A stretch of 33,166 nucleotides of DNA from Alphaproteobacteria bacterium (GCA_038131935.1 JAYPQH010000028.1:1-33166); one strand, 5' to 3'; counted from the stretch's first letter, positions 3,067 to 25,236 are shown. A program made the numbers and translations. The notes: a model not told the origin generated them from the letters alone.

Positions 3067-3158
3067 CTGGGCCCTCCAGCACCATAATTCATAAACGAAC
3101 ACAGTATCCTTCGCGACTTGTTCCGCACCGAAGAGGGCACAGACCAACAAATGCATGC

Positions 3159-5618: not shown

Positions 5619-5643
5619 CTCTACCCTCACTAACCCTATTCAC

Positions 5644-5665
5644 AAAAAAGCCAATTGTTTTGGCT
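5644..5665 (-). terminator. Possible weak intrinsic terminator between rapZ and EIIA
   Basis: AGCCAA-N5-TTGGCT stem followed by a U tract on the - strand; a T tract also follows on the + strand. Confidence 0.4.
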
Positions 5666-5681
5666 CATTTTTTTTCACAGC

Positions 5682-6536: not shown

Positions 6537-6605
6537 CTCGTTTGCCCCAAAATTGCATTTGGAATGATCACGACTGTATCTATAACATGACGCATCATGA
6601 AGCTG

Positions 6606-7046
6606 CTAATATTTCTGAGCTAGATGTGACAAACCATGTTCATGATCATACTGCTCCAAAAAGTAAGTCAGTCGCACAAAGCTGTAAGGATCCATCAACA
6701 TTTGGTGCACAGGGATACGCTGATCCAGCAATTGCTGGTAACAGTTTTCTTGCGCAAGGACATCTACTTTTTTAACCGCGCTCAAGATCAGGTCAACTTT
6801 TGCTAAGCCGCAGCATTCCATTTGTATGATACCCAATCCACGCAACTCAACCAAACCCTTGGTTGCAGGAACAGGTGCCATCATAATTTGATTTTCTAGA
6901 GATGAGAGTACTACACCGTCATCACCGATGAGCTCAGCACCGTTTTGAATAGCCTCCAGCATTAAGCCTGTTTTGCCAATGCCAGGGGGCCCCATCAGTA
7001 AAATCCCCAAACCTTTATAACGAAAGCCATTTGCCTGTATGATCAT
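6606..7046 (-). CDS. hprK: Short alphaproteobacterial HPr kinase/phosphorylase
   Basis: GILLMGPPGIGKT Walker A, LIGDD, GLVELRGLGI signature; between chvG and rapZ. Confidence 0.85.
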   Translation of the reverse strand: MIIQANGFRYKGLGILLMGPPGIGKTGLMLEAIQNGAELIGDDGVVLSSLENQIMMAPVPATKGLVELRGLGIIQMECCGLAKVDLILSAVKKVDVLAQENCYQQLLDQRIPVHQMLMDPYSFVRLTYFLEQYDHEHGLSHLAQKY

Positions 7047-8557
7047 TTCGCCCTCACAAGTGGCAATGTCATGACAACGCGTAACCCGCCAAGAGGGCTA
7101 TCATCCAATGAGATGTCTCCTCCATGCCTAGAAAGAATTTGCTTAGCAATGCCTAGGCCCAGACCTGAGTGTCCTTCAACCCCTAGCCGCGTTGAATAAA
7201 AACGCTCAAACACCCTCGATCTAAGAGCTTCTGGTATACCAGGACCTTCATCATCAATGATCACGTGGGCTTTTTGTTTCTCCATGCGCACTTGGACCAA
7301 AATTTTGCCCCCTACTTCTGAAAATGAGATGGCATTATCAAGAATATTTGCCAAAGCATGGATTAATTGCTGCCCCTTTGCCTCCACAAAAAGGCTGTCA
7401 TCATCATGTAGGAACTGGATTGTGAAACCAAGTCGTTCAGCTGACGCCATCCTTTGAGCCACAAGTTCTTCCAGCAACTCAATGAGTGCGATATGTTCAG
7501 ATGGTCCATCACCTAGCTCTCGCTCCAGTCGTGCTGAGGCCTGAATATCATCTATCAATTGATGCAAACGCTGCAAATCCCGACGCATTGCTGTCAAAAG
7601 CTTTGCTTGTCTTTCCGCATCATGTGGGCGCTCAAGAAGCTCAACGGATGTTCGAAGTGCAGTCATTGGATTCTTTAACTCATGAGCTACGTCCGCAGCA
7701 AAATCGTCGACCGCAACCAAACGCTCGCGCAAGGCGAACACCAACCCCCTTATCGCATCGCTCAAATGCCCAATTTCATCACCTCGGCGAGCAAATTCCT
7801 GAAAAGCAAGGGTATCAATATCCCCAAGACCTTGGGTGCGTTTGGCCACATTCTGCGCTTGGTGTGAGAGCCGAGCCAAGGGTTGCGCAATTGAGGTTCC
7901 AAGAAAAAGTGAAATGGCCAATGTTGCCAACAGAACAACAGCAAAATAAGTCAGATAAGCGCGTCCCTCACGCTCCATCAACTGATACAAACGTGTTTCA
8001 GGAAAGGTGACATCAAGGATGAAATCCTGTTGATGCAGCGTGACTTTGACAGCTGCAACAGCCGCATCTTTTGGTGACAATCTACGAATATAAGCCACCT
8101 CGCGACCCGTGAATGCTTCACGTACATGATCTGGCATTGATAATGGCTGCACGCGTCCGCTACCGTCCATAAATCGTGAAATAATCAGCCGGCCTACATC
8201 TCTGGACGTGCGTGTAAAAAAGCCAACATCTCCCCCAGGCAATGGACTTCTTACGGTAATGGCTTCAGGACGCGCACGAACAGCGAAACCAGTCTGTGCA
8301 TACAATCCAACCTGCAAACCAGACAATTCCGCAACACGTGCCATCAACATGGACAACCTATGATCGCGCCTAACATCATCGGACTCAGAAGCAACCCTTA
8401 GTGCCAAGGCTAAACTCTTCGCTTCCTGCAAAAGCGATCTCTCTTCAGCTTCGAGACCCGTAACTTGCCTATGAAGGAATGCCAATCCTACCGCTGCACA
8501 AAATACAACTGTTAAGTTTGTAAGAATAATGCGACGGACCAAGCCTATCCGCATCAA
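7043..8557 (-). CDS. chvG: Sensor histidine kinase, ChvG/ExoS-like
   Basis: Two TM segments, HAMP (RGDEIGHLS), H-box FAADVAHELKNP, NILDNAISFS, DEGPGIP, FERFY, SGLGLGI; chvI-chvG-hprK order. Confidence 0.85.
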   Translation of the reverse strand: MMRIGLVRRIILTNLTVVFCAAVGLAFLHRQVTGLEAEERSLLQEAKSLALALRVASESDDVRRDHRLSMLMARVAELSGLQVGLYAQTGFAVRARPEAITVRSPLPGGDVGFFTRTSRDVGRLIISRFMDGSGRVQPLSMPDHVREAFTGREVAYIRRLSPKDAAVAAVKVTLHQQDFILDVTFPETRLYQLMEREGRAYLTYFAVVLLATLAISLFLGTSIAQPLARLSHQAQNVAKRTQGLGDIDTLAFQEFARRGDEIGHLSDAIRGLVFALRERLVAVDDFAADVAHELKNPMTALRTSVELLERPHDAERQAKLLTAMRRDLQRLHQLIDDIQASARLERELGDGPSEHIALIELLEELVAQRMASAERLGFTIQFLHDDDSLFVEAKGQQLIHALANILDNAISFSEVGGKILVQVRMEKQKAHVIIDDEGPGIPEALRSRVFERFYSTRLGVEGHSGLGLGIAKQILSRHGGDISLDDSPLGGLRVVMTLPLVRAK

Positions 8558-9231
8558 AGCAAATCCAACCGGTAGCCCATGCCATAAAGGGCCGTGATCG
8601 CGTCAAATTTTGGATCAATCTTTTTGAATTTGCGTCTAATTCTTTTGATGTGAGAATCAACTGCGCGCGGATCCGTATATTCATCATCTTCATAGGCATC
8701 ATATATGAGTTGCTCGCGGCTGCATACATGACCAGGACGCTTGGCTAAGCTCATCATGATCAAACATTCTGTAACGGTCAGGGGAATATTCTCACCTTTC
8801 CATTGGCATGTCATGGCCTGTCCATCTAAAGACAAGCCTTTATGGGTAACCAACTGATCATCTCTTGGTGGTTGACTGCGACGTAGAATAGAACCAATGC
8901 GTGCCAACAAAAGATTAGGGGAGTAGGGTTTACGTAAAAAGTCATCTCCCCCCTGCCGAAGCCCTTCAAGTTCATCAAGCTCATCATCGCGTGACGTTAG
9001 AAAAACGACTGGGACTGAGGATTGCACGCGCAATCTCCGCAACACCTCAAAACCAGTTAGTCCCGGCATTTTAATATCCAAAATAACAAGGTCTGGTGCC
9101 AATCTTGCAAAATTCGCAAGAGCTAATCTTGGGTCTGCAAAGGATGTGACTTTATAGCCTTCATCTTCTAACAACATGGTCAATCCCTCAAGGATAGCAC
9201 GTTCATCATCGATCAAAACAATATGTGTCAT
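8554..9231 (-). CDS. chvI: OmpR-family response regulator ChvI
   Basis: LIDDE, LDIKMP, FLTSRDDELDE, LTVTE, DSHIKRIRRKFK, LYGMGYR, all typical of ChvI. Confidence 0.9.
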   Translation of the reverse strand: MTHIVLIDDERAILEGLTMLLEDEGYKVTSFADPRLALANFARLAPDLVILDIKMPGLTGFEVLRRLRVQSSVPVVFLTSRDDELDELEGLRQGGDDFLRKPYSPNLLLARIGSILRRSQPPRDDQLVTHKGLSLDGQAMTCQWKGENIPLTVTECLIMMSLAKRPGHVCSREQLIYDAYEDDEYTDPRAVDSHIKRIRRKFKKIDPKFDAITALYGMGYRLDLL

Positions 9232-12413: not shown

Positions 12414-13349
12414 GTGGAACCCGCTATTCGCCTTCGCCAACTCAAGAAAACCTATGCGGGCAGCCATGGACAACCCCCTAAGGATGCACTCAAAGGTATC
12501 GACCTTGATATTCCTATTGGATCAATGTTTGCATTGCTCGGACCAAATGGAGCAGGAAAGTCAACATTAATCAATATTTTGGCAGGCCTCGTCACCAAGA
12601 GTTCCGGTTTGGTTCATGTTTGGGGACTCGATATGGATGTCAACCCAAGAAATGCACGTGCACATCTTGGTATTGTTCCTCAAGAACTTAACCTTGACCC
12701 TTTCTTCACCCCTCGCGAAGCGGTGGAGCTGCAGGCGGGGTTTTACGGCATTGCGCCACGTAAGAGACGTACCATGGAAATTCTCAGCGCTGTGGGGCTC
12801 GATGACAAAGCGGATGCATACGCCCGTTCCCTGTCTGGCGGTATGAGAAGACGATTATTGGTTGCCAAAGCCTTGGTACATAATCCGCCTATATTGATAC
12901 TCGATGAACCAACTGCAGGTGTAGACATAAGTTTACGTCAATCACTATGGGCTTATGTACGCGAGCTGAATGCCCAAGGAACAACAGTTATCTTGACGAC
13001 ACATTATCTAGAGGAAGCGCAAGAATTATGTGACCGTGTTGCCATTATTAACCATGGCCAAATTGTTGCTGATGAGGACAAGCATCAATTGTTGGGACGC
13101 TTTACCAAAAGAAAAATGATCATAACCATAGAATCATCTGTGACGCCTGATTGGTTACCAAAACATGAAAAGGCCGATTTTCGTATAAATAGCTATGGTC
13201 AACTGGTTGTTCATTATGACAGCCAACATGTACATGCCACAGATATCATACAAATGGTTGGAGAAAAAAACATTGTTATAAAAGACTTAGAGGTGACAGG
13301 GGCAGATCTTGAAGAGGTTTTCCTTGCCCTGACCACTGATCAAAACTGA
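12414..13349 (+). CDS. ABC-2-type transporter ATP-binding protein (YadG-like)
   Basis: GPNGAGKS, VPQE, LSGGMRRR, ILDEPTAGVD, TTHYLEEA, C-terminal DLEEVF; AAGGAG RBS. Confidence 0.9.
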   Translation: MEPAIRLRQLKKTYAGSHGQPPKDALKGIDLDIPIGSMFALLGPNGAGKSTLINILAGLVTKSSGLVHVWGLDMDVNPRNARAHLGIVPQELNLDPFFTPREAVELQAGFYGIAPRKRRTMEILSAVGLDDKADAYARSLSGGMRRRLLVAKALVHNPPILILDEPTAGVDISLRQSLWAYVRELNAQGTTVILTTHYLEEAQELCDRVAIINHGQIVADEDKHQLLGRFTKRKMIITIESSVTPDWLPKHEKADFRINSYGQLVVHYDSQHVHATDIIQMVGEKNIVIKDLEVTGADLEEVFLALTTDQN

Positions 13350-13378
13350 TTAACAAATTTGATGAAGGTGCTGCGTGC

Positions 13379-14168
13379 ATGAAAAAAACAATTGTACCGC
13401 TCATTGTTGTTTTGTTTTTTTGCTTTTTGTCTCATGGAACGGTTTTTGCGCGCTTAAATAAGCTCGAAGAGAATAGCTCTATTGTCTATAAGCCCCCTCC
13501 AGGAGGTTTTCGATCCTTTGGAACCTCTAAATCGGATTATTTTTCACGCAAACATCCGCATATGGTCATGGTTTCAAGAGATCCGAGAATTTGATAGCTT
13601 TGTTCCAAAAAATAAAGTCGAGGAATTTTATACCTCACAAATTTTGGTGAATCTATCACATCACGTTGCAGAGCCATTCACAGCCATTCATGCCGTCATG
13701 ATTGGTCAGGGTTATGCCGCAGCCAATGCCGCAGCACGGTTTTCCCTCAATACAAGTCTTGGCTTGGCTGGTGCCCTTGATGTTGCGGATAATTTGGGTT
13801 TTCCAAGACGTCATATAAGTTTGGCTGATGTCATGTGCTATTGGTCGATACCTCAGGGCCCTTATATTGAAGTTCCTCTTATGGGGGGCATGCCCTTAAG
13901 AAACCTTGGCGCCAATATTTTGAGCATCTCTGCCGTTATGCAGACTATTACGCCGGATGTTCCGTTATCCCTTCCTCTAAGATTGTTGATGGTGCGTGGA
14001 GTGCAAGCAAATATATCAAATACAGAGCTTCCAATTTTAAAAAATGATTACGAAACAACGCGTCATTTAAAGATAGAAATTGTCCGCAATTCATGTCAAA
14101 ACGTCACTCAGAATGTTGGAGACCATCCCAAAAGAAATCCGACCATGAGTTGGCAGGTCAATGGATAA
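13379..14168 (+). CDS. Divergent MlaA/VacJ-like exported protein, ~262 aa, one indel near 13493-13497
   Basis: Signal peptide MKKTIVPLIVVLFF..VFA in ORF 13379; MlaA-like DPLEPLNR, RFSLNTSLGLAGALDVA and GPYIEVPLMG in ORF 13482; removing one C from the C5 run joins them. Confidence 0.75.
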
Positions 14169-14222
14169 AAAATGGCAACGACCTGCGGGGGTTGGCGCCA
14201 TTTCATCTGGAGTGAGGACAAT

Positions 14223-15341
14223 ATGGATCGTCGAGAACATGCCTCTCACTTTGTATCAGCTATCGTCATCTTGTTTTCATTAGGCGCATCCTTTTATGCC
14301 ATTGTCGGCAACCCTTGGGTTGAACCCAGAGCACTTTGGGTCACACAAAATATTTTTAAGGACAACAAACAAAATTTTCGAGGCTTTCCTGTGTATAGCT
14401 TGGATGGCCAAGGGAGCGCCCAAATTGTTGGGCGAATTCATTTGCGAGATCAAGCCGCAAAAGTGGAACTTTTTCCTGATCTCGAGAACCAAGCCAATGG
14501 TACAGAAAAATTATATTTGAATACTGGATCGGTAAATATTTTGTGGCAGTTGGTTCCACCTGATACGAAACAGCAAATCAATCAGGACCTTGTGAAATTG
14601 GGTCAAGATCTTACTCAGCTCATGAAGATCACCATGCAAACGGAAAAATTTCACCAAGAATATTCCAGCAGGCTTGAAAAACTTTTGCTGAGACAGGGTG
14701 AGGCGTTGCAACAAAGTGATGAATTTTCTGCAAAAGCAAAACGCATTCTAAGAATTATCATAAACGAGCATGCTGAGCGTGTGGGTAGTGAATTGGGTTT
14801 AGCCATGACACCACATTTGCGCGCGGCTCTCGTTGACCTTTTAACCCCCACGTTCGAGGGCATACAAAGATTTATCACATCAGGCGATATCAATATGCGC
14901 CCACTCCAAACATTTGGCGACAAAGTCATCAATGACCCCGAAATTGGCGCGATATTGCAAAAACATGTAACAACAATCACTCATGACCCAAGACTATGGA
15001 CGTTGAGTTTTGATTTGGTGAGCATGTTTTCAAAGTCTCTACTTGACGACCCAGATATGCAAAAATTGTTTGAAGATGTTCTGGCTGATAAAGAATTCAA
15101 AGCAATATTCGCACAAGCAGAACAAAAAATTGCGCAAACCTTGGACCATATCGTTAGCCAGATAATTGGTCGTGGACCAAATCTTTATCCAGACCCTCTT
15201 GCCATCAGGATTATACGAAATCTCTTCTTACAAAGGACACAGGTGGTGGCAATTATCATCATGGAAGATCATACCCTCAACAGACATTTGCTCACGATCC
15301 TTCCCACGTTAGACATGCGGCTTGAGGACCAAGACAAATGA
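14223..15341 (+). CDS. Membrane-anchored protein with short beta-rich domain (possibly degenerate MCE) and long helical region
   Basis: ATG 14223 behind GAGGA; TM FVSAIVILFSLGASFYAIV; RGFPVY..QIVGRI segment; then ~270 aa of amphipathic helix-like sequence; ATGA overlap with next gene. Confidence 0.7.
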   Translation: MDRREHASHFVSAIVILFSLGASFYAIVGNPWVEPRALWVTQNIFKDNKQNFRGFPVYSLDGQGSAQIVGRIHLRDQAAKVELFPDLENQANGTEKLYLNTGSVNILWQLVPPDTKQQINQDLVKLGQDLTQLMKITMQTEKFHQEYSSRLEKLLLRQGEALQQSDEFSAKAKRILRIIINEHAERVGSELGLAMTPHLRAALVDLLTPTFEGIQRFITSGDINMRPLQTFGDKVINDPEIGAILQKHVTTITHDPRLWTLSFDLVSMFSKSLLDDPDMQKLFEDVLADKEFKAIFAQAEQKIAQTLDHIVSQIIGRGPNLYPDPLAIRIIRNLFLQRTQVVAIIIMEDHTLNRHLLTILPTLDMRLEDQDK

Positions 15342-16890
15342 GCTCAATTCACATCAAGAACGTGACGCTTAAGCAAAAAAACGGTTCTCGCACGCTCCTT
15401 CAAAACGTCAACATCACACTACATCCTGGTGAGGTTGTGCTTTTGACAGGACCGAGCGGAAGCGGGAAATCTACAATTGTCAATATTTTAGCTGGAACCA
15501 TGGATCCCAAAGAACGCGGCTGGGAGATCACAGGATTTGTAGAATTAGACAAACAGCAGTGGTCCCTCGGTGCACAACATGCGGGTATGGGGGGCATGGT
15601 ATTCCAATCATTCGCGTTGTTTGATGATTTAAATATCGATCAGAACTTATCAATTGCCTCAGACCACAACACACCGCCTGCCCAAAATTTACGCGATGCA
15701 ATTCAAGCATTGCTGGATGATATTGATGGAACTTTATCTATCCGTTCAGCGAGCGGAGGACAGCGCCAGCGGGTTGCTGTGGCCCGAACCTTACTTGCCA
15801 ATCATCCCATTCTGTTCCTTGACGAGCCTAATTCTGGCCTTGACAGCGAAGCCACCAAAAAATTGTCTTACCTATTGAAGACATTGGCGAAAGATCTTCA
15901 TATTCCTATCGTCGTGGTGGCCCATCACCTTCGGCATTTGATTGACCATACATCAAGGTTACTGGTACTTGATCCTCAATCTGCATCTATAGACGAAATC
16001 CCGCCAAAAATAGACGCCCTTGAACAATACCTCAAAGACCTCCAGGACAACCCACAAAAACGTGAAGCAAGGAAGACGCAGACAACCAGAATCCATCAGG
16101 TAACAACACAGACCCAGGTCAACCATCGCGCAAAAAAGCCAAGCGTCCAGCTCGATTGGTTTTGTATTTTCTTCAGACAAGGCTATGGGAACTTGGATTT
16201 TCCCCCAATGCTCTATTGTTCGTAGCCCTAGGTTCGATCTTGGTTGGTTTTGTTACCAGCTGGTTTGTACTGATGTATATTCCCTTCAGAGATTACATAC
16301 TTCCCGTCATTTATGCTGACGCCTTGGCAGGGCTTGCTTTCACAGAACTACGTGTCATGACCCCTCTTACAACCGCGATGCTTATTTCTGTTCGAAATGC
16401 AGCTTTAATTTCGGCGGATACAGGTCATAAGGTTTACACAGACCAGTTTGGAGCCATGCGCAACCTCAACATACCTCATCGCATTTATCATGATGTGAAT
16501 ATTCTTTTATCTTCCACAATTATATCTTTGGCGCTGACCTTAATAGCTCTGATGATCACAACATATGTTGCCATGATGACATGGTGGATGGTCTTTCCCG
16601 AAGATTCATTATACATTTGGCGAGACTTGTTTTTTCAAAGGCTCTGGCCAGCAGGACAATTAATTCCCACGGGATGGGAATGGATACTCGCCAAATCCAT
16701 ACCTTCCATCGTAGGGGCCGCCTATATTGCTTTATTCTTTGGCCAACTACCCAAAAATGATGTGCGCGACATCAACCGAGCAACGGCGCGATCATTAATT
16801 TGGGGCCTCACTTTTGTTCTGGTATGGCATTCAGCACTGACACTGGTTGAATTCTCTTACGTCAAGGAAAAATTAGAAGCATCTTTCTAG
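15338..16890 (+). CDS. ABC ATPase-MlaE-family permease, probably one fused ~517-aa protein split by an indel at 16160-16163
   Basis: GPSGSGKS, VFQSFALF, SGGQRQR, LFLDEP, VAHH; then the MlaE-like ELRVMTPLTTAMLISVRNAALISADTG..DQFGAM. One extra T gives continuous DWFLYFLQTRLW; no RBS or good start for a separate permease. Confidence 0.75.
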
Positions 16891-16974
16891 ACAAATAGGC
16901 ATTTTTTTCTGTCACAAAAAGGCCAGATCCTTTATGAAACATGGAAGTTTGAAGCCACAAATTATGGATCAGAG

Positions 16975-17388
16975 ATGTTCTCTATAAATAACGTAATTGT
17001 GAGATTTCTTTTTACATCACTGCTGGTGTTTGGAACCTATAATCCCTTTGGCTTTTCCTATTTTCATTGGCTACTGAAGCCAGACCCTATGACATTGCTT
17101 CCGAAAATCCTCGTTGGGTTGTTGCTTTTCTTGGCGTTTCGAATGATTTTCGTTTCATCATTGTTGGCTTTGGGGATATTCGGTTCGTTTGTTGTTGGGC
17201 TTACGATTACAGCTTTGTTAGCGACCTTGATACAGTTCGGTCTCATTCCACTGTCATTTCAAGCAACACAAGTGATACTTCCTTTAGGAGTCGCACTCTT
17301 TTTTGGTATTGGTGTCTCCTATTCTGGGATTGCCAATCGCCTCTCAAGACAGACTCAATCACATTCGATTGGAGGATCCTTATTTTGA
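16975..17388 (+). CDS. Small 4-TM membrane protein (DUF6524-like)
   Basis: 137 aa hydrophobic; RFLFTSLLVFGTYNPFGFSYFHW resembles the TYNPxGxSYxxW motif I associate with DUF6524 (unverified). Confidence 0.7.
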   Translation: MFSINNVIVRFLFTSLLVFGTYNPFGFSYFHWLLKPDPMTLLPKILVGLLLFLAFRMIFVSSLLALGIFGSFVVGLTITALLATLIQFGLIPLSFQATQVILPLGVALFFGIGVSYSGIANRLSRQTQSHSIGGSLF

Positions 17389-17852
17389 TGGGTTCGCTTG
17401 CTCGAAGATATTTAAGCCGCGCTTCGCACCGTGAGACGGTTATCCATAATTCATATGCACCCGATGACATCATCATGAATGTGCGTATGTTTGGAGGCCA
17501 ATTACGCATTTATAAAGAACGCATACAGATAGAACGCTTCGGCGTTATCAATCATTTGCTGGAACCATTCGGGGCAACAACTGGCTACTCAGAGTCCACT
17601 CTTCTGATCAATAAAATATCATTGATAAATATTGCATCTCCGTTGATTTTGAATGATTTTCTATACTTTTCCTACCCGGGATCCCCACCTAGAACTGGAA
17701 ATGTTCTGCGCGATGCCACCGCAGAAAATGCTATCATGATGAATTTCTTTGACAACAGAGATGTATATGATGCCATCGATTTAATTCTCACGCTTGGGGA
17801 AGGAAGAATTGGCAGTACTATTCCTCTTCGAAGACGTAAGACATCATCATGA
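17388..17852 (+). CDS. Soluble protein with a bacterial PH-like (DUF4429-like) domain, 154 aa
   Basis: TGATG coupling at 17386-17390 with GGAGGA RBS; pattern GGQLRIYKERIQIERFG...I..I...P....FLYFSYPG...A.AENAIMM resembles DUF4429-type PH domains. Confidence 0.6.
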   Translation: MGSLARRYLSRASHRETVIHNSYAPDDIIMNVRMFGGQLRIYKERIQIERFGVINHLLEPFGATTGYSESTLLINKISLINIASPLILNDFLYFSYPGSPPRTGNVLRDATAENAIMMNFFDNRDVYDAIDLILTLGEGRIGSTIPLRRRKTSS

Positions 17853-18487
17853 TATTTTCAGATATGACAATTCTTCAATCTGATGGAACTCTTGCGGTAT
17901 CTGCCCTTCTGATTTGGCTATTTGATCGGCTTTTGACCAGTGCCGTCTTGTTTCTCTTGCCTGTATTAATCGTCAAAGCTGTACTTACACTCATTCAATC
18001 GGCCTTTGCATTTCCTTACCCTGAGGTACCTTTGTTTAACAAACTTGCCATTACCATAGGGTTTGGATTTGCCCTGCTCATTCTTCTTAACGCGGAGAGA
18101 TTAGGCATGATGGATGTGGAGGTAATTTTTTCACAAGGAGCTTACTGGGATCTCAGTTTAACCGAATTTTTCGCTGGTCCGGTGAACCCTTTCAACATCC
18201 CATCAACAATTTTTCTCATACAGAGCCATCCGTTTGGTGCCGCAGCGCAAGCAATAATTGTGATATGTTTATTAACATCAGCCATTGCTATCTGGAAAAT
18301 AGCACCACCTGGCAAACTCTTTGGTGTTTTTGCAGGTTTTTTTGCTGTAGGCATCACAAGTTGTTATCTTGTTATTTATACCACCGCACTACTCGCCTGG
18401 AGTACATCCAAACTCAATTTTTTAATTTTTTTGTTTGCGATCATATTTCTGAGGCCACTCATTCGCCTAAGATCCCGCCAGAGATAA
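17849..18487 (+). CDS. Polytopic membrane protein of unknown function
   Basis: 212 aa, 5-6 hydrophobic segments, basic C-tail; ATGA overlap with the preceding gene. Confidence 0.75.
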   Translation: MIFSDMTILQSDGTLAVSALLIWLFDRLLTSAVLFLLPVLIVKAVLTLIQSAFAFPYPEVPLFNKLAITIGFGFALLILLNAERLGMMDVEVIFSQGAYWDLSLTEFFAGPVNPFNIPSTIFLIQSHPFGAAAQAIIVICLLTSAIAIWKIAPPGKLFGVFAGFFAVGITSCYLVIYTTALLAWSTSKLNFLIFLFAIIFLRPLIRLRSRQR

Positions 18488-18532
18488 ATTTTAAACCAAC
18501 AAAAACCGCAGCGTTTTGTGATGATATGTCTA

Positions 18533-18948
18533 TCAAATTTTATTGTACCAACGTTTGCGGCGCAGCAACCATGCCTCCGCGGCTTCCAATCGTTTCGCTG
18601 CATAATCTCCTTCAGTGTCTTTCTGATTTGCTTTGGATCCGTCTTTTCACCGATCCAAGCTGCATATATCTCTGTTCCTTGCTCAAAGTCGCGTCGCCTC
18701 AAACGCCCCTTTTTATCAAGGTATAATTTCAAAACTTGCTCAATTCTCTGATCTAAATCACTTTGCAGCAGCACCTCTATTTTGTGCCACTCCCACGGAC
18801 AAACCAGCTTGTTTCTGCCTCTTTCAGACCAAAAGACCGAACCCCTTCACGTTTTAAACGTCGTTCAACATCTCTATCGATTAAGAGGCCCGCATCCAAC
18901 TCAGCTGCAACATATTCTGCAAAAACCAGCATAATCAGGGGTTGTCAT
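18533..18948 (-). CDS. Hidden ~138-aa helical protein broken by 3-4 indels (or pseudogene)
   Basis: ATG 3 nt after the TAXI-like stop with AAGGTG RBS; mosaic reading MTTPDYAG/FAEYVAAELDAGLLIDRDVERRLKREGVRSFGLKEAET../LLQSDLDQRIEQVLKLYL..WKPRRHG/LLRRKRWYNKI-stop. Confidence 0.55.
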
Positions 18949-18951
18949 CGG

Positions 18952-19986
18952 TCACACCTTTGAACTTTCAGGGGTCTTTATTGGACCACCCCAAAAAACC
19001 TCCCACGCCTGAACCAATCTAGACCAAATATCTTTCATCCAGTCTGAGAGATCATCTATATAACGACGCACTTTTCCTAAAGAAATAATCACGCCCTCCT
19101 CTAAGTAACCTTCACTGATAGGACGAACAATTTTATCTAATTTCTGATAGGGAAGTGTATTGTTCACAACGAGGCCAACACTGGTACAAATCGTTCGGAT
19201 TGACCGTTTAGGTTCCCAGAAACCATCTGCTCTCAATTCAACCTCTGTTGGCAAAAATCCAAGCAAGGAAGCCCCGTTGGCACCTTTCAAAAAAGTGAGA
19301 ATATTAGGAGCTAGGTCTAGGCTATCATCATCAATAATCCGCCTCATGCTGTCCTGCTCCAGGGTAGGAAAGTCCATAAAAAAATGCACATCAACATTCC
19401 CATCACGCAGTGCTGAAATAGCTCTTGTTCCACCTCGATAATCAGCGCGTGCAGACGATATGATGGGTGCGGTGGGTATAACGCGCTGTAAACTAATCGC
19501 CGTATCACCATCACGTGGCCCCAATGAAAAAGCTTTCACGCTTATCTCATTATCTTTATTTGACGTAAGGCTGTTGACCATATTTTTCCTGAGAACAGCA
19601 AACAGACAAATCGGACGTGAGCCATATATTTCCAAGGTATCCGCGGACAGGGGTACATCTTGCCTGAACATATCGAAAATATTTCGCTGCACAATTGCGA
19701 CTGAATTTGGGCGACCCCAAACCATCTCCAAGGCTTGATAACTTCCTAAACTGACTTCTTGTTTAATATGAAAATCGTCTGAAAGTTCATCAAGAATGCG
19801 CTGGTATATATCATTTTCTGTATCCTGCAGCAGCCCTCCAGAGAGAAACGTTAATTCTGTTTGGCTTTCCTGAGCATAACCAAACTTAGAATGTAGGGGG
19901 GAAACGACATATAAAAGCGTGAACATCAATAACCACGCTGAATACATAACTTCCCGGTAGATTGATGTTTTCCAAGTCATACGCAT
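18952..19986 (-). CDS. Divergent TAXI-family (TRAP-associated) solute-binding-like protein
   Basis: Signal-like N-terminus; LTFLSGG..IY, SLGSYQAL, AIVQ, LGPRDGDT and AISALRDGNVDVHFF align by eye with TAXI blocks. Confidence 0.6.
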   Translation of the reverse strand: MRMTWKTSIYREVMYSAWLLMFTLLYVVSPLHSKFGYAQESQTELTFLSGGLLQDTENDIYQRILDELSDDFHIKQEVSLGSYQALEMVWGRPNSVAIVQRNIFDMFRQDVPLSADTLEIYGSRPICLFAVLRKNMVNSLTSNKDNEISVKAFSLGPRDGDTAISLQRVIPTAPIISSARADYRGGTRAISALRDGNVDVHFFMDFPTLEQDSMRRIIDDDSLDLAPNILTFLKGANGASLLGFLPTEVELRADGFWEPKRSIRTICTSVGLVVNNTLPYQKLDKIVRPISEGYLEEGVIISLGKVRRYIDDLSDWMKDIWSRLVQAWEVFWGGPIKTPESSKV

Positions 19987-20003
19987 AATGTTCCACTGAT
20001 TTA

Positions 20004-20037
20004 AAAAATGAAAATTTGGCCTACCAATTTCATTTTT
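20004..20037. terminator. AT-rich imperfect inverted repeat between TPR and TAXI-like genes
   Basis: AAAAATGAAA..TTGG-CCTA-CCAA-TTTCATTTTT; terminator or operator, undetermined. Confidence 0.3.
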
Positions 20038-20095
20038 CGTGATTGGAGTTTTTTAGAATTGCTTGAAGTTCCAACATGAAAATTTATCGACTTTC

Positions 20096-21331
20096 TTAGC
20101 CCTTGCGAACGGATTGCAAAATTCTCTCTTTCACATCGCAAACTGAAAGTGGATTGCACGAAGTAACATCATCATAGCCAGATCTTTCATAAGCAGCTCG
20201 AGCATCCAGAATATCAAAACCTTGCAGCAAGGAAGCTACATAACGAAGCTTCGCTGAGATATGATCACGATAACCACGTGGACTTAACCTCAATGCTTCA
20301 CGCAATAGTTTGTCTGCCTCTACATAATTTTCTTGCTTCATCAGCAGACGGGCATATTCATAGACAACGCTGAAGTCCTGGGGATACCAATAGTAGGCAT
20401 CCGCCATTAGCTTTGTGGCCTGTGTTGTTTTATTCAATGGATCAAGCAATTCAGCCTGCAACATGTAAACTGATGGTTGCCACCCTACATCTGATGCAAT
20501 GGCTTGAGCTTCTGTCAGTGCTGCATCCAACCCATCACGCTCCACCATGAATAAGGCGTTAAGAACACGCGCAGACGGATTCATTTCGTTCCGCTTGAGC
20601 GCGGACACAACATGATCCTTTGCTTTATCAATATTCTGATGCAAGATAATCTCTTGAAGCGCCATGGTTACGTAAATATCATCCACATGCTCTGATGGCA
20701 CCTCAAACAGTAGTCTCTCTAAACGCTTTGTTAACTGTTGTGTTTCATCTTCCTCCAGAGCGTCTTTTGAGCTTTGAGAGACCATCGCTGAAGAATTAGA
20801 CGCCATGACCTGCTCTCTTAACTTTGCAGAAACATAGGTCAGTGGGTAATTTTCTAACATCAGACCCTCAGCGAGTTGGTCAACCAAATCATCGACATTG
20901 TCGAGGGGACCAGAGACCTCCACTTTGTTCAAAAAACGACGATTGTAAGGTGACAGTCCCAACGTCACGCGATCATTGTAAAATTGAGCAGAAAAACCGT
21001 ATGTATTGGGTGCGAGACCAGTTAGCCCAACAATTTTTTCAACCGTTTCAAAATCTGAGAACTCCTCGAAGATTGCTCTGTAAAGAGCAGCTACATACGT
21101 GTTGTCTTTGTCGCGATTGGGATTGAGTTGACTTCGAACAACGGTCTCTTCCTCTATCTCATCTATTCTCGCTTCAAGGTCATTCATGATGGACTCAGAA
21201 CTGTGCCCTACACGTTCTAAATTTGTCGAAAAACTCTCTTCAACCACCACAATGCCATCATGATTTGACAAGTAAAAATGACCCAGCAAGGTCCCCAGGA
21301 CAAACGTCGGTAAAATCAATAAATGTTCCAT
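20096..21331 (-). CDS. Membrane-anchored/exported TPR-repeat protein
   Basis: N-terminal hydrophobic segment; C-terminal TPR-like units such as YEYARLLMKQENYVEADKLLREALRLSP; terminal Cys pair. Confidence 0.75.
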   Translation of the reverse strand: MEHLLILPTFVLGTLLGHFYLSNHDGIVVVEESFSTNLERVGHSSESIMNDLEARIDEIEEETVVRSQLNPNRDKDNTYVAALYRAIFEEFSDFETVEKIVGLTGLAPNTYGFSAQFYNDRVTLGLSPYNRRFLNKVEVSGPLDNVDDLVDQLAEGLMLENYPLTYVSAKLREQVMASNSSAMVSQSSKDALEEDETQQLTKRLERLLFEVPSEHVDDIYVTMALQEIILHQNIDKAKDHVVSALKRNEMNPSARVLNALFMVERDGLDAALTEAQAIASDVGWQPSVYMLQAELLDPLNKTTQATKLMADAYYWYPQDFSVVYEYARLLMKQENYVEADKLLREALRLSPRGYRDHISAKLRYVASLLQGFDILDARAAYERSGYDDVTSCNPLSVCDVKERILQSVRKG

Positions 21332-21465
21332 AAAAAATCTCTTTTATAAATCTGTACGTGGTTGGGCTGACCATATTCTTGTCAAGACGTGATCTCTTAT
21401 TCCTTCAAACCCTGTACGCTGTGTTTTTTAAATGGTTTTTTCATCAGTATATTTTGACAAGTATG

Positions 21466-21732
21466 TCAGTGTTGAATGGAAACATGTGCAACATCCGAGC
21501 AATATTCCAATGCCATCAACGGATCCCCGGTTGCGGCAGAACAACTGGAGGTTGAGAATGATACAGACGCGGACGCAACCTCAAAACTCGAGACAATTAA
21601 AGGCTGTTGAACTGGCTCAACCAACTCAATCATACTTGATTGAGGGGCAGTGATTTTGTTCGCAACGACCTCTGAGGCCAACTCTAGAGCAAAACTGAAT
21701 AGAACCGCTGCCAAAAAACTTTCAATTCCCAT
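21466..21732 (-). CDS. Small putative exported protein with C-terminal Cys pair, 88 aa
   Basis: Hydrophobic N-terminus FLAAVLFSFAL, Ser-rich middle, C-x13-C; GGTGAG upstream; co-oriented with the TPR gene. Confidence 0.5.
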   Translation of the reverse strand: MGIESFLAAVLFSFALELASEVVANKITAPQSSMIELVEPVQQPLIVSSFEVASASVSFSTSSCSAATGDPLMALEYCSDVAHVSIQH

Positions 21733-22017
21733 ATCATCTCACCAACTTATTATAAAAAACACACCACCTAAGTCTCACAATTTCTGATCTTCATGATCCC
21801 ATTTAAGATCAAACCAACGATCGAACGTCATTTTGGTACGAGCGCATGTTGAACATCTTTTTCATTATGAAACGTGAGAGGACTTCTCGTCTTAACAAGA
21901 TTTTAGATACCAAGTCTTCATGACGAAGATATGACAATTTACTCTTCAAAAAATTCAATATCTCTGTATTTTTTACCAACATCCAATAGCTAATGAATTT
22001 CAACAATTTTTCTTTCA

Positions 22018-22087: not shown

Positions 22088-23407
22088 ATGCGTACATTTA
22101 TTTCAGCTATTGCTGCTGTAGCAAGTATGGCAACGATGGGTTACGCAGGCGGCCATAGCGCGCCTGTGGAAGTTAATTTTTGGCATGCGATGGGTGGCCG
22201 CCTCGGTGAAATCGTTGATAAATTTGCTAATGATTTCAACACACGTCAAAATGATTACAAAATCAACGCCATCTATAAAGGCAATTACACCGAAACAATG
22301 ACATCTGCTATCTCTGCATTTCGTGCAAAGCAGCAACCTCACATTGTTCAGGTTTTTGAAGTTGGTACAGCAACCATGATGGCGGCTGAAGACAAAGGTG
22401 CGGTGTACCCTGTCTACAAATTGATGGAGGATGCAGGTGTAGCATTTGATCAAAACGCATATCTTCCAGCCGTTATTTCTTATTACACAACTGCAGACAA
22501 CAAATTGCTCTCCCTACCGTTTAACTCATCTACACCAGTCCTTTGGTACAACAAAACAAAGTTAGATGAACTCAATCTGCCGGTACCTACAACATGGGCA
22601 GAGTTGAAGGAAGCTGCAGACAAAGCCAAAAAATCTGGCGTTGAGCTCCCCTAAGCTTCGGTTGGCAGTCATGGACCCAAATTGAAAATTATTCTGCTTG
22701 GCATAACCTTGCCTTGGGCACAAAAAGAAAATGGTTTCACAGGCCTAGACACAGAGTTCACCTTCAACAATGACGCCGTTGTAAACCATATTCAATCCAT
22801 AGCTGACATGGGTAAGGATGGCACATTTAAGTATGGCGGTCGTCGTGGGGACTCACGCGCGATGTTTGTTAACGGCGAATGTATTTTCTGGATCAACTCT
22901 TCAGCCTATTATGGCGGCTTCAAAAAAGACATCAAAGACTTCGAATTTGGCCAAGCCATGCTTCCACTTGATACAAAAGTTGCTGAGCGTCCACAGAACT
23001 CCATCATTGGCGGCGCTACATTATGGGTATTGAATGGTCATGATAAGAAGGCATACGCAGGCGTTGCAGAATTCTTTAAGTTTTTATCAGAAGCCGAGCA
23101 GCAGGCCTTCTGGCATCAGGAGACAGGCTACGTTCCCATCACAACTGCGGCATATGAACTTTCCCAAAAGCAAGGTTTTTATGGGACCAACCCAGGAACC
23201 GATACAGCCATCAAACAATTGTCACTCAACACACCAACACCAAATTCAAAAGGACTTCGCTTTGGTAATTTCGTTCAGGTTCGTGATGTGATCAATGAAG
23301 AGCTTGAAGCTGTATGGGCTGGTCAAAAAGATGCACGGACAGCATTAAATGATGCCGCAACGCGCGGTAATGCTTTGCTGCGCAAATTCGAGACGGCCAA
23401 CAAGTAA
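22088..23407 (+). CDS. ugpB: sn-glycerol-3-phosphate ABC transporter binding protein, two compensating indels at ~22650 and ~22724
   Basis: FWHAM, YKGNY, QVFEVGTATMM, PFNSSTP, NSIIGGATLW, WHQETGY; the conserved GWQSWTQIENYSAWHN lies in the -1 frame between the two ORFs. Confidence 0.93.
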
Positions 23408-23507: not shown

Positions 23508-24394
23508 ATGCGGCATGCCCGTGTAGTTTTCCGTTCTGGAACCCTTCCCTATTTACTTTACTTCCCCAAATGATGGTCACCATCATTTTTTTTCTTATGG
23601 CCAAACTATCAAGCCCTTGAACAATCATTTTTATTGAAGATGCATTTGGCTTCTCTAAAGAGTTTGTTGGTTTCGAAAATTACATCGCATTATTTCAGGA
23701 TCCTGGCTATCTGCGCTCATTTGGAACAAGTTTTTGGTTTGCTTTGATGGTGACAAGTCTTTCAATGGGGTCGGCTTTGTTATGTGCAGCTTGTGCCAAT
23801 CGACTTATCAGAAGTGCATTATTTTATCGTACTTTTCTTATTTGGCCTTACGCGGTGGCTCCCGCCATTGCAGGTGTCATATGGTACTTCATGTTTAATC
23901 CCTCCCTGGGCATTATTGCCTTTTGGCTTGAGGGTTTGGGCGTTGATTGGAACCATTATATCAATGGGGATCAAGCGTTCATTTTGGTTGTTTTGGCAGC
24001 AAGTTGGAAACAAATCAGCTATAATTTCCTGTTTTTCTTTGCTGGACTTCAATCTATACCAAAATCCCTTCTCGAAGCTGCAGCTATCGATGGTGCGGGA
24101 CCCGTGAGAAGATTTTGGACCATGAGTTTCCCGCTGTTGACACCCACAACATTTTTTTTACTTGTGGTGAACCTTGTATATGCTTTTTTTGATACCTTCT
24201 CTTTAATCCATGCCACCACAGATGGAGGCCCCTTTGATGCCACCTCCATTCTTGTATTTCGGGTCTATAACACCGGATTTATTGGTCAAGATTATGGCAG
24301 CTCTGCGGCGCAATCTGTTATTCTTATGGGGCTTGTTATCACCATGACCGCTATCCAATTTCGGTATGTCGAACGCAAAGTGGTATATGCATGA
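23508..24394 (+). CDS. ugpA: G3P ABC permease UgpA, three indels in 23555-23635
   Basis: Reconstructed start [27 protein letters not shown]; [37 protein letters not shown]. Confidence 0.9.
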
Positions 24395-25236
24395 TAGAAC
24401 AACGCCCTTTTCTAAATATTCTTACCCATATGGTCATGATTGTTGGACTTTTGGCGGTATGTTTTCCACTTTGGATGACCCTCGTCGCAGCAACTCATCA
24501 TGCAGAAGAACTCTCTCTAAAGCCTTTACCTCTATGGTTTGAGACCAAGGCTGGAATAATTTTTCGGCTGTGCTTTCCCGAGGCATTCCAGAAGCAGGTG
24601 GGATACCCGTTTCAACAATGATGTGGAATTCCTTAATCATGGCTCTTGGAATTACCATTGGCAAAATAGCTGTATCAATCACAGCAGCCTATGCGGTTGT
24701 TTTTTTTAAATTCCCGTTTCGATCACTATGTTTTTGGCTCATCTTCATCACGTTGATGTTGCCTGTTGAAGTCCGTATTTTACCCACGTTTGACGTTATC
24801 GCGCGCTTAGGCATGCTGAACAATTATGCTGGATTATGTATTCCCCTCATCGCTTCAGCCACCGCAACATTCCTTTTTCGGCAGTTTTATCTCACTGTTC
24901 CACCAGAACTCATTGAAGCCGCACGAATGGATGGTGCAGGCCCACTACGTTTTTTGTGGGACATTGTCTTACCATTATCACGAACAAACATAGCTGCCAT
25001 GTTTATCATTTTGTTTATTTATGGCTGGAACCAGTATCTATGGCCACTACTGATTACAACCGATCCATCCACACAACGGTGGTCATGGGTATTCAAAGAA
25101 TGGTGAACTCTGGTGAGGCCTTACCTGTTTGGAACTACATTATGAGCACTGCTGCATTGGCACTTCTCCCCCCTGTTTTGGTGGTTGTTTGCATGCAAAA
25201 ATATTTGTTAAAGGTCTTGTCGAGAGTGAGAAATAG
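24391..25236 (+). CDS. ugpE: G3P ABC permease UgpE, indels near 24541, 25070 and 25205
   Basis: MIEQRP start, [40 protein letters not shown]; C-terminal VKGLVESEK-stop at 25236. Confidence 0.9.

What the first reader, a model, noticed from the sequence alone, without database searches (positions are those of the whole stretch)
13379..21732. Candidate undescribed envelope system: non-canonical Mla-like transporter island with convergent TPR/TAXI arm
Seen: ten genes inserted between housekeeping loci, almost all with signal peptides or TM segments, several translationally coupled (15338-15341, 17386-17390, 17849-17852, 18948-18952). Known: MlaA, MCE, MlaE and MlaF form lipid-trafficking systems normally with MlaC/MlaB. 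Here all recognisable parts are strongly diverged, MlaB and MlaC are absent, and the neighbours are a DUF6524-like protein, a PH-like protein, a TPR protein and an orphan TAXI-like protein. Inference: a specialised envelope-spanning lipid/hydrophobic-ligand transport or membrane-stress system distinct from housekeeping Mla.
Basis: partly seen in the sequence, partly recalled or inferred. Interest (0 to 1): 0.8.

Follow-up and report, generated by a model that had tools for sequence, protein, structure and literature searches.

The report
Second, MCE-less Mla-like envelope transporter cluster
This marine bacterium carries, besides its ordinary Mla lipid-transport genes, a second conserved gene cluster in which an Mla-type membrane pump fused to its ATPase always sits next to a rare, unnamed periplasmic protein and several other unknown membrane proteins, which probably form an undescribed transport system across the cell envelope.

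Summary
The frame breaks (MlaA-like, ATPase|permease, small minus-strand gene) belong to this assembly only: contigs of four independent public runs carry indels at those sites, and those indels restore the frames. A complete ordinary Mla set (MlaFE, MlaD, MlaA-MlaC) lies elsewhere in the genome, so this is a second system.

Its core is one 517-aa protein, an ABC ATPase fused to an MlaE-like permease. Directly upstream lies a 372-aa bitopic protein of a rare family: 34 hits in 1.84 billion representatives, no Pfam domain.
- **Core pair:** adjacent in 21 of 25 loci. Three of the four misses have under 600 nt upstream.
- **Recurring neighbours:** DUF6524, a PH-like protein, a 5-TM protein and a small soluble protein each recur in 5-6 of 12 lineages. 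An MlaA-like gene recurs in 2 of 12.

The "MCE" label is not supported by sequence and only faintly by fold. "TAXI" is not supported. The TPR/TAXI arm is not conserved beyond the genus, apart from a TAXI-like relative in one other genome.

Best reading: a new variant of Mla-type trans-envelope transport of a lipid or other hydrophobic cargo. The substrate is unknown, and I found no description of it in print.

The parts
13379..14168 (+). Diverged MlaA-like protein with an N-terminal signal peptide. It is split over two frames in this assembly and is 262 aa once the 1-nt deletion seen in run X1 is applied.
   Evidence: PF04333 80.6 bits. The signal-peptide ORF 13379-13594 is in another frame. 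X1 lacks one base at 13478, and pieces of X4, X9 and X15 over 13300-13643 each carry one gap. A 262-aa open frame results after the edit. It scores only 50-70 bits against other MlaA-family proteins, the genome's own canonical copy included.
14223..15341 (+). Bitopic inner-membrane protein of a rare unnamed family (here 'A2 family'): one N-terminal TM helix, a small beta domain and a long helical periplasmic domain. Proposed stand-in for MlaD.
   Evidence: 34 hits at E <= 0.001 in 1.84 billion representatives. No Pfam family in 27 of 27 members. AF2 model with mean pLDDT 86.4. Directly upstream of the fused ABC gene in 21 of 25 loci. The start at M18 follows the collection's 372-aa form P0001.
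15338..16890 (+). One gene: an N-terminal ABC ATPase fused to a C-terminal MlaE-like permease (517 aa). This assembly splits it by one missing T in the run 16160-16163.
   Evidence: ABC_tran 87.8 bits and MlaE 46.2 bits. Fused 524-aa form in G001. Near-identical 517-aa P0038. An extra T behind 16159 in 4 of 4 runs. A 517-aa open frame after the edit.
16975..17388 (+). DUF6524 small membrane protein (3 hydrophobic segments).
   Evidence: PF20134 91.8 bits. Within 2 kb of the fused ABC gene in 10 of 25 loci, 5 of 12 lineages.
17388..17852 (+). 154-aa soluble protein, possibly of a bacterial PH-like (DUF4429-like) fold. Its start overlaps the DUF6524 stop (TGATG).
   Evidence: No Pfam family. The nearest named Atlas clusters are DUF4429 at 0.94 and 0.93, which is a lead only. 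60% identical to the G001 homologue. Next to the core in 7 of 25 loci, 6 of 12 lineages.
17849..18487 (+). 212-aa membrane protein with 5 hydrophobic segments and no named family. Its start overlaps the preceding stop (ATGA).
   Evidence: 30% identical to the G001 homologue. Relatives near the core in 7 of 25 loci, 5 of 12 lineages, and in G397 and G056 C1.
18533..18948 (-). Small soluble protein (about 138 aa, 's142 family') with the conserved C-terminal motif GW.PRR.GLL..+RWY. This assembly spreads it over three frames.
   Evidence: tblastn of the G001 142-aa protein hits three frames. Indels at 18566, 18767, 18791 and 18921 appear in 3-4 of 4 runs. After the edits the frame is 138 aa and 63% identical to G001. 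Near the core in 9 of 25 loci, 5 of 12 lineages. Alignment A6.
18952..19986 (-).
   Evidence: N-terminal hydrophobic segment. No Pfam, NCBIfam or PDB sequence match. Not matched by PF16868 at E <= 10. hhalign against the genome's four TAXI proteins gives probability 1.9%. Relatives only in G001 (44%) and G397 (24%).
20096..21331 (-). 411-aa protein with an N-terminal hydrophobic segment and C-terminal TPR repeats.
   Evidence: TPR_19 28.2 bits. No relative found in the other loci. Whether G001 has one cannot be told, because its contig ends there.
21466..21732 (-). 88-aa ORF, probably not a gene.
   Evidence: Only a sub-threshold Pfam row. No relative in any locus searched.

Best explanation
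This is a second, non-canonical Mla-type envelope transport system.

**Shown:**
- The core is a homodimer-type half-transporter, a single protein with an ABC ATPase followed by an MlaE-like permease.
- It is encoded directly after, and translationally coupled to, a rare bitopic protein (A2 family) whose bulk is predicted to lie in the periplasm.
- The pair is conserved as a cassette. It is repeatedly accompanied by DUF6524, a 5-TM protein, a small PH-like protein and a small soluble protein. In two lineages, this one included, a diverged MlaA-like outer-membrane-type protein is also present.
- The genes are intact in the natural population.

**Inferred:**
- The A2-family protein takes the place of the MCE subunit (MlaD, PqiB). 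It would anchor in the inner membrane beside the permease and reach across the periplasm with its helical domain.
- The MlaA-like protein is the outer-membrane end.
- ATP hydrolysis moves a lipid or other hydrophobic envelope molecule between the two membranes.
- The membrane and cytoplasmic accessory proteins assemble or regulate the complex.
- The 344-aa exported protein and the TPR protein are lineage-specific additions.

Substrate and direction are unknown.
For: **A separate canonical Mla set exists.**

**The permease is MlaE-like.** PF02405 matches positions 11-211 of 212 at 46.2 bits.

**ATPase and permease are fused.** This holds in G001, in P0038, and in all 120 listed relatives, each of which carries PF00005 and PF02405 and is 413-553 aa long.

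**The A2 family and the fused ABC gene co-occur.** Both were found in the same 3 of 401 genomes of the class. They are adjacent in 21 of 25 loci; three of the four misses have under 600 nt upstream.

**Accessory families near the core:**

| Family | Loci (of 25) | Lineages (of 12) |
|---|---|---|
| DUF6524 | 10 | 5 |
| s142 | 9 | 5 |
| PH-like | 7 | 6 |
| 5-TM protein | 7 | 5 |
| MlaA-like | 6 | 2 |

By contrast, DUF6524 passes its cut-off in only 18 of 401 genomes of the class.

**The A2 model fits a periplasmic bridge.** Mean pLDDT is 86.4, with a TM helix at 16-45, five strands at 54-118, helices at 121-352 and two closing strands. Positive residues precede the TM helix (sequence).

**The operon is tight.** Start and stop codons overlap.

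**The frames are intact elsewhere.** This holds in 4 runs of 4 studies. Contigs of an RNA library cover both arms, which fits transcription but does not show it.
Against: - No MCE domain is detectable in any protein of the cluster. The only structural hints are weak: YebT 6kz4_A at probability 0.63 over 68 columns, and MlaD 6zy2_A at 0.51 and 9a3a at 0.57, all with E > 0.1.
- The ATPase is not specifically MlaF-like. Its best NCBIfam rows are generic and all fall below their cut-offs.
- The MlaA-like gene is missing next to the cassette in G001, and no second MlaA was found in that 84%-complete genome.
- The accessory set varies from lineage to lineage. Most DUF6524 genes in other genomes sit in unrelated contexts: 12 of 14 loci inspected.
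- No binding, lipid or localisation data exist. The complex prediction could not be run.
- In relatives the cassette also travels with ParA/MinD-like ATPases (8 of 25 loci) and mitofilin-C-terminal-like proteins. These are not classic lipid-transporter partners.
Confidence: 0.6

Rival explanations
1. The cassette is a real machine but not a lipid shuttle. The ABC dimer and the long helical periplasmic protein would act as a mechanotransmission or contact-site device that organises inner-outer membrane contacts or internal membranes, together with ParA-like and mitofilin-like proteins. Alternatively it extracts a protein or glycolipid.
For: - ParA/MinD-like ATPases lie near the core in 8 of 25 loci.
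- The family directly downstream of the ABC gene in the Azospirillum-like lineage matches the C-terminal part of Pfam Mitofilin in 3 of 3 members tested: 31.4, 23.9 and 14.9 bits against a cut-off of 27.4. A further neighbour scores 30.3 bits.
- The A2 periplasmic domain is mostly helical bundle, and its best whole-model matches are coiled coils.
Against: - This window has neither a ParA-like nor a mitofilin-like gene, and PF09731 finds nothing in the genome at E <= 1.
- The MlaE fold and the MlaA family are so far known only from lipid traffic (established knowledge, recalled).
- The helical matches are at the noise level the tool itself describes.
Confidence: 0.2
2. Only the A2 gene plus the fused ABC gene form a unit. 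The MlaA-like gene, DUF6524, the PH-like protein, the 5-TM protein, the small protein, and the 344-aa and TPR genes are unrelated neighbours that happen to travel together in this lineage.
For: - Order, strand and membership of the accessory genes differ between lineages.
- Five short or sparse lineages show only the pair or less.
- DUF6524 elsewhere neighbours DctM, MFS, molybdopterin and other unrelated genes.
- The TPR protein and the 344-aa protein are not conserved around the core outside the genus.
Against: - Four rare families each recur within a few kb of the core in 5-6 of 12 lineages.
- In this window they are translationally coupled to each other.
- The same accessory families (MlaA-like, DUF6524, 5-TM, s142, 344-aa relative) also cluster together in G397 and G056 C1 without the ABC gene, which marks them as a set.
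Confidence: 0.15
3. It is a decaying, frameshifted remnant of a duplicated mla cluster.
For: Three genes are out of frame in the window.
Against: - Independent contigs from 4 runs of 4 studies carry indels at those very sites, and these restore open frames of 262, 517 and 138 aa.
- Essential or housekeeping genes are split in the same assembly: DnaB on C3, and AdoHcyase, UgpB and fumarase in the window.
- All ABC motifs are intact (sequence).
Confidence: 0.02

Closest known systems
E. coli / proteobacterial Mla system (MlaFEDB, MlaC, MlaA)
   Same: It has an MlaE-family permease driven by an ABC ATPase, an MlaA-family protein encoded beside it, and a bitopic periplasmic partner gene coupled to the transporter gene.
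   Different: - ATPase and permease are one polypeptide.
- There is no MCE subunit; a rare unnamed family takes its place.
- The cluster has no MlaB or MlaC.
- The genome's ordinary Mla genes lie elsewhere.
- Extra conserved partners: DUF6524, a 5-TM protein, a PH-like protein and s142.
Brucella abortus Mpc (mpcEFDA), the chimeric Mla-Pqi system (PMC12436622; abstract and the section 'Identification of the mpc genes' read)
   Same: It is a second, non-canonical MlaE/MlaF-based envelope system of Alphaproteobacteria beside the housekeeping one, and is proposed to bridge the two membranes.
   Different: According to the paper, Mpc has separate E and F genes and a true MCE protein, and is conserved in Hyphomicrobiales. 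Here E and F are fused, no MCE domain is detectable, and the partner families differ.
Pqi / Let (YebT) MCE tunnels
   Same: An inner-membrane-anchored protein with a small beta domain followed by long helices that could span the periplasm. The best non-helical Foldseek row is YebT 6kz4_A at probability 0.63.
   Different: That match covers only 68 columns at E 0.13. There is no sequence similarity to MCE. There is one beta domain, not a stack. The partner here is an ABC transporter rather than PqiA/LetA (the latter recalled).
Alphaproteobacterial Mic60 / mitofilin (recalled; Pfam PF09731)
   Same: In related loci, but not in this window, the gene after the fused ABC gene matches the C-terminal mitofilin region.
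   Different: Only one of three members passes the Pfam cut-off. The proteins are about 280-320 aa, roughly half the model's length. No such gene is in this window or genome.

Membership tests
Mla system | MlaE-family permease (PF02405) | tested here: met
   46.2 bits against a cut-off of 22.5, covering profile positions 11-211 of 212. It is far below the genome's canonical copy at 264 bits.
Mla system | Separate MlaF ATPase subunit | tested here: not met
   The ATPase is fused to the N-terminus of the permease. Its best NCBIfam rows are generic ABC families, all below their cut-offs.
Mla system | MCE-domain subunit (MlaD, PF02470) by sequence | tested here: not met
   None of the cluster's 12 ORFs hits PF02470 at E <= 0.01. 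0 of 27 A2-family members hit. hhalign against 29 MlaD sequences gives probability 0.14% for the whole protein and 0.10% for the N-terminal part alone.
Mla system | MCE fold in the periplasmic partner | tested here: inconclusive
   Foldseek against the PDB gives no match at E <= 0.001. The weak rows are YebT 6kz4_A (probability 0.63), MlaD 6zy2_A (0.51) and 9a3a (0.57). The VIA-align lists are filled by the helical domain. The beta domain was not folded on its own.
Mla system | MlaB (STAS) and MlaC in the system | tested here: not met
   No STAS or MlaC family appears among the cluster's proteins. An MlaC gene lies next to the canonical MlaA on C27.
Mla system | MlaA-family outer-membrane protein (PF04333) | tested here: met
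   80.6 bits against a cut-off of 25. A signal peptide is present once the frame is joined. No clear lipobox is visible in the sequence. Localisation was not tested.
TAXI (TRAP-associated) binding proteins, PF16868 / TIGR02122 | Match to the family model | tested here: not met
   No Pfam or NCBIfam row at E <= 0.01. PF16868 finds 4 true copies elsewhere in the genome over its cut-off but not this gene at E <= 10. hhalign gives probability 1.9%.
DUF6524 (PF20134) | Match over the cut-off | tested here: met
   91.8 bits against a cut-off of 27.
Bacterial PH-like domains (DUF4429) | Match to the family model or fold | tested here: inconclusive
   No Pfam row at E <= 1e-4. The Atlas feature search puts two DUF4429 clusters at 0.94 and 0.93. 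No structure was predicted. That DUF4429 belongs to the PH-like clan is recalled, not tested.
TPR proteins | TPR repeats over the cut-off | tested here: met
   TPR_19 scores 28.2 bits against a cut-off of 25, at residues 301-349.

The most novel reading that the evidence does not exclude
The cassette defines an MCE-independent class of trans-envelope machine. A new periplasmic protein family replaces MlaD on a fused MlaFE-type pump. In several alphaproteobacterial lineages the pump works together with mitofilin-C-terminal-like and ParA-like proteins, DUF6524 and an MlaA paralogue at inner-outer membrane contact sites. That would tie bacterial Mla-type lipid traffic to the ancestry of MICOS-type contact sites.
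Probability: 0.15. Interest if true: 0.9.

Novelty: new variant of a known kind. Interest (0 to 1): 0.7.

Why it matters
Every Mla, Pqi, Let, Mce and TGD system described so far pairs its MlaE-type permease with an MCE-domain protein. This statement rests on my own knowledge plus the papers listed.

Here a conserved cassette pairs an MlaE-type permease, fused to its ATPase, with a different and very rare periplasmic protein. It also draws in at least four families of unknown function, one of which is DUF6524. No paper in the library mentions DUF6524.

If the reading holds, three things follow:
- Envelope lipid traffic gains a new architecture.
- Several unknown families gain a first functional context.
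- The system is testable, because the core cassette with its MlaA paralogue also occurs in an Azospirillum-like genome. The named relatives include Azospirillum, Thalassobaculum and Magnetospirillum.

Searches for a published description found none: 'DUF6524'; 'MlaE' with 'half-transporter'; 'Mic60' with 'alphaproteobacteria' and 'MlaA'; the same with 'ABC transporter' and 'lipid'; and the MlaE/MlaF/fusion/MCE/phylogenetic search. Subscription journals and supplements were not searched.

Tried and rejected
- **Word-index protein searches.** With the 389-aa and 344-aa proteins as queries, each search found only the protein's own cluster.
- **First AF2 model of the 389-aa protein.** Built from 2 sequences, it was poor (pLDDT 50.1) and was replaced by the 27-sequence model.
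- **Fold searches.** Foldseek and both VIA-align searches were dominated by coiled-coil noise from the helical domain.
- **PDB sequence searches.** Profile and single-sequence searches gave nothing meaningful.
- **The search for related loci with the full fused alignment.** None of these loci was used.
- **Flanks of the G397 and G056 C1 clusters.** They held no further shared genes.
- **MlaA paralogues.** Bit scores show no clear clade.
- **TPR proteins.** The window's TPR protein and those of G397 and G056 are not detectably related.
- **Mitofilin.** Not found in this genome, which is 89.9% complete.
- **Complex prediction.** The job (A2 N-terminus with two permease domains) was never accepted because the queue was full. 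There is therefore no result of any kind on binding.
- **Earlier findings of the scan.** None concerns this cassette.
- **Veillonella Mla paper (PMC10665443).** A term search for 'fused', 'fusion', 'Alphaproteobacteria' and 'paralog' found no passage.


Full report
**What is in the window.**

| Protein | Family result | Score |
|---|---|---|
| 13482-14168 | MlaA (PF04333) | 80.6 bits, cut-off 25 |
| 15338-16225 | ABC ATPase (ABC_tran) | 87.8 bits |
| 16156-16890 | MlaE-like permease (PF02405) | 46.2 bits, cut-off 22.5 |
| 16975-17388 | DUF6524 | 91.8 bits |
| 20096-21331 | TPR_19 | 28.2 bits |
| 389-aa, 154-aa, 212-aa, 344-aa proteins | no Pfam or NCBIfam family | |

- A hydrophobicity scan finds membrane or signal segments in all proteins tested except the ATPase and the 154-aa protein. 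The small minus-strand protein was not scanned.
- GC is 0.42-0.45, little below the 0.44-0.48 upstream. Composition therefore gives no sign of a foreign island.

**The frame breaks are not biological.** Three genes are out of frame in the window.
- *MlaA-like gene.* Its signal peptide (ORF 13379-13594) is in another frame than the MlaA domain.
- *ATPase and permease.* They overlap by 70 nt in different frames.
- *Small minus-strand gene.* It is spread over three frames.

Several results show that these breaks belong to the assembly.
- The one genus relative, G001, has a single 524-aa ATPase-permease ORF.
- The protein collection holds a near-identical 517-aa fused form, P0038.
- I laid Logan contigs of four runs from four studies on the region: a salt lake, seawater, a marine metagenome and a metatranscriptome.
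  - All four carry an extra T behind 16159, which turns the T4 run into T5.
  - Three or four of the four carry indels at 18501, 18566, 18767, 18791 and 18921.
  - X1 lacks one base at 13478. The pieces of the other three runs each have one gap in 13300-13643.
- Applying these indels in a script gives open frames of 262 aa (MlaA-like with signal peptide), 517 aa (fused ABC) and 138 aa (small protein, 63% identical to G001's).
- The same assembly also splits DnaB on C3, and AdoHcyase, UgpB and fumarase in the window.

I read the breaks as assembly errors, or at most as private to this assembly. The locus therefore holds nine genes plus one doubtful 88-aa ORF.

**It is a second system.** The genome is 2.48 Mb in 67 contigs and 89.9% complete. 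It carries an ordinary alphaproteobacterial-style Mla set elsewhere:
- MlaE (264 bits) next to an ABC ATPase on C3;
- MlaD beside NDUFA12 on C26;
- MlaA (156 bits) with MlaC on C27.

That the class is Alphaproteobacteria is my inference. It rests on the gene content (chvI/chvG-like pair, short HPr kinase, PTS-Ntr genes) and on the named relatives.

**The core cassette.** The 389-aa protein probably starts at M18, giving 372 aa as in P0001. I call its family A2.
- *Rarity.* A profile search of 1.84 billion representatives gave 34 proteins at E <= 0.001. Of these, 12 were at <= 1e-10 and 6 at <= 1e-30, nearly all 340-410 aa long.
- *No named domain.* None of 27 members has a Pfam family at E <= 0.01, apart from two stray single rows.
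- *Model.* With the 27-sequence alignment, AF2 gives mean pLDDT 86.4. The model has a TM helix at 16-45, five strands at 54-118, a helical domain at 121-352 and two closing strands.
- *The fused ABC family is larger.* All 120 best relatives listed are 413-553 aa and carry both PF00005 and PF02405. Those with names come from Azospirillum, Thalassobaculum, Magnetospirillum, Magnetococcales, Terasakiella and some Gammaproteobacteria.
- *Co-occurrence.* In an even sample of 401 genomes of the class, the A2 profile and the fused protein hit the same three genomes: G000, G001 and G056. Only 3-4 candidates per genome were scored. In G056 the two genes are adjacent.

**Neighbourhood test.** A metagenome scan used two permease-specific motifs. 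It matched 179 stretches, of which 22 encode a relative, giving 22 loci. I mapped these loci, the window, G001 and G056 C3 with HMMs built from the session's sequences.

The A2 gene lies directly upstream of the fused ABC gene in 21 of 25 loci. Three misses (L189, L190, L204) have under 600 nt upstream. One (L201) is a true miss, with a LysR gene upstream.

| Family near the core | Loci (of 25) |
|---|---|
| A2 family, directly upstream | 21 |
| 280-320-aa family ('f279') | 11 |
| DUF6524 | 10 |
| small soluble protein (s142) | 9 |
| ParA/MinD-like ATPase | 8 |
| PH-like protein | 7 |
| 5-TM protein | 7 |
| MlaA-like | 6 |
| 168-aa family (c168) | 5 |
| TPR family of G397/G056 | 3 |
| 344-aa protein | 2 (window and G001 only) |
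| window's TPR protein | 1 (window only) |

I grouped the loci into 12 lineages by single linkage at >= 75% identity over the last 230 residues.

| Family | Lineages (of 12) |
|---|---|
| A2 family | 10 |
| PH-like protein | 6 |
| DUF6524 | 5 |
| 5-TM protein | 5 |
| s142 | 5 |
| MlaA-like | 2 |

- Many loci are short contigs, so these counts are lower bounds.
- For scale, DUF6524 passes its cut-off in 18 of 401 genomes of the class.
- In 12 of 14 other DUF6524 loci inspected, its neighbours are unrelated genes.
- In two genomes, G397 and G056 replicon C1, an MlaA-like gene, DUF6524 (2-3 copies) and s142 cluster with a TPR protein around an RND pump and a long HlyD-like adaptor, without the ABC cassette. 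The 5-TM family is there too, found in G397 and in G056 C1. A relative of the 344-aa protein lies in the G397 cluster only. So the accessory proteins behave as a set that can sit beside either kind of pump.

**What the labels are worth.**
- *'MCE': not supported by sequence.* Pfam finds nothing. hhalign of the A2 profile against 29 MlaD sequences from relatives gives probability 0.14%, and 0.10% for the N-terminal part alone. By fold the question stays open.
  - Foldseek finds nothing at E <= 0.001. Its few non-helical rows are YebT 6kz4_A (probability 0.63, 68 columns, rmsd 4.2) and MlaD 6zy2_A and 9a3a (0.51 and 0.57).
  - The two VIA-align runs were swamped by the helical domain.
  - The strand count, five before the helical domain and two after, would allow a split seven-stranded barrel. 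That is my reading of the model, not a result.
- *'MlaF': only a generic ABC ATPase*.
- *'TAXI': not supported.* There is no model hit. PF16868 finds four true TAXI genes in the genome but not this one at E <= 10. hhalign gives 1.9%.
- *'PH-like': a lead only.* Atlas feature scores to DUF4429 clusters are 0.94 and 0.93.
- *TPR and DUF6524: correct.*

**How it most likely works.**

*Shown:*
- a conserved, translationally coupled cassette of a fused MlaE-type half-transporter and a bitopic protein whose bulk is predicted to be periplasmic;
- a recurrent set of membrane and small soluble partners;
- an MlaA paralogue beside the cassette in two lineages;
- intact genes in natural populations from marine and saline samples. 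Of the 24 runs listed, 20 hold the stretch or part of it, from 11 studies.

Contigs of an RNA library cover both arms. This fits transcription but does not prove it.

*Inferred:*
- The A2 protein stands in for MlaD/PqiB on the permease dimer and spans the periplasm with its helices.
- The MlaA-like protein is the outer-membrane end.
- ATP hydrolysis moves a lipid or other hydrophobic envelope component between the membranes.
- DUF6524, the 5-TM protein, the PH-like protein and s142 assemble or regulate the machine.
- The 344-aa exported protein and the TPR protein are additions of this genus.

I put this reading at 0.6. Rivals:
- a contact-site or mechanotransmission role rather than lipid shuttling (0.2). 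This is prompted by the ParA-like and mitofilin-like neighbours in relatives. Mitofilin scores were 31.4, 30.3, 23.9 and 14.9 bits against a cut-off of 27.4;
- only the pair is a unit (0.15);
- a decaying remnant (0.02), refuted.

**Comparison with what is known.**
- *Canonical Mla.* It shares the permease family and the MlaA family. It differs by the fusion, the missing MCE, MlaB and MlaC, and the new partners.
- *Brucella Mpc* (PMC12436622; abstract and one section read). This is another second Mla-like system in Alphaproteobacteria, but with separate E and F genes and a true MCE protein.
- *Literature.* The searches found no description of this cassette, and no paper in the library mentions DUF6524. 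Subscription journals and supplements were not covered.

**Verdict.** This is a new variant of Mla-type envelope systems, with a rare non-MCE partner family and several unknown accessory families. Interest 0.7.

Noticed in passing
window 1781-3156, 22088-23407, 23744-25106, 28792-30392; G000 C3 (L053:5970-7435): Housekeeping genes are split into two ORFs each: AdoHcyase, the UgpB-like binding protein, Ugp permease pieces, class I fumarase, and DnaB on another contig. The assembly is rich in single-base indels, several of them next to homopolymer runs.
   Followed up: partly
L143:7002-7841, L199:8218-9177, L194:10750-11709, L185:16777-17901: In related loci, the gene right after the fused ABC gene ('f279', 280-320 aa) and a further neighbour match the C-terminal part of Pfam Mitofilin (Mic60). 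Scores are 23.9, 31.4, 14.9 and 30.3 bits against a cut-off of 27.4. This window's genome has no such gene at E <= 1.
   Followed up: partly
L047 (G397:C2:71000-90900) and L049 (G056:C1:1225000-1244900): Two distant genomes hold a shared cluster. It has an AcrB-type RND pump, a 600-650-aa HlyD-like adaptor, a TPR protein, an MlaA paralogue, 2-3 DUF6524 genes, the s142 family and the 5-TM family. In G397 it also has a relative of the 344-aa protein and a ParA/VirC1-like ATPase. In G056 it lies next to T2SS-F and secretin genes.
   Followed up: partly
L185:10750-11613: A long form of the small s142 protein carries a C-terminal SnoaL_2/DUF4440 (NTF2-like) domain. I recall that MlaC belongs to the same fold class, which would suggest small-molecule binding. 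This was not tested.
   Followed up: no
L008:5253-8824 (G001): In the genus relative, the cassette is flanked by an EamA-type transporter and a 752-aa patatin-like phospholipase instead of the MlaA-like gene. hemC and hemD follow at the contig end.
   Followed up: no
window 21332-21435 and 21753: The non-coding stretch upstream of the TPR gene varies between populations: single-base indels, and a 24-nt deletion at 21420 in run X9.
   Followed up: no
window 13300-21800: Near-identical DNA is held by 14 DNA runs (at least half of the sampled words) labelled seawater, marine, estuary, marine sediment and salt-lake metagenomes. Six RNA runs hold it in part. The organism is a widespread marine or saline bacterium.
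   Followed up: partly
window 5208-9231: The typical alphaproteobacterial regulatory block is present: response regulator, histidine kinase, a short HPr-kinase C-terminal protein (146 aa), RapZ and EIIA-Man.
   Followed up: no
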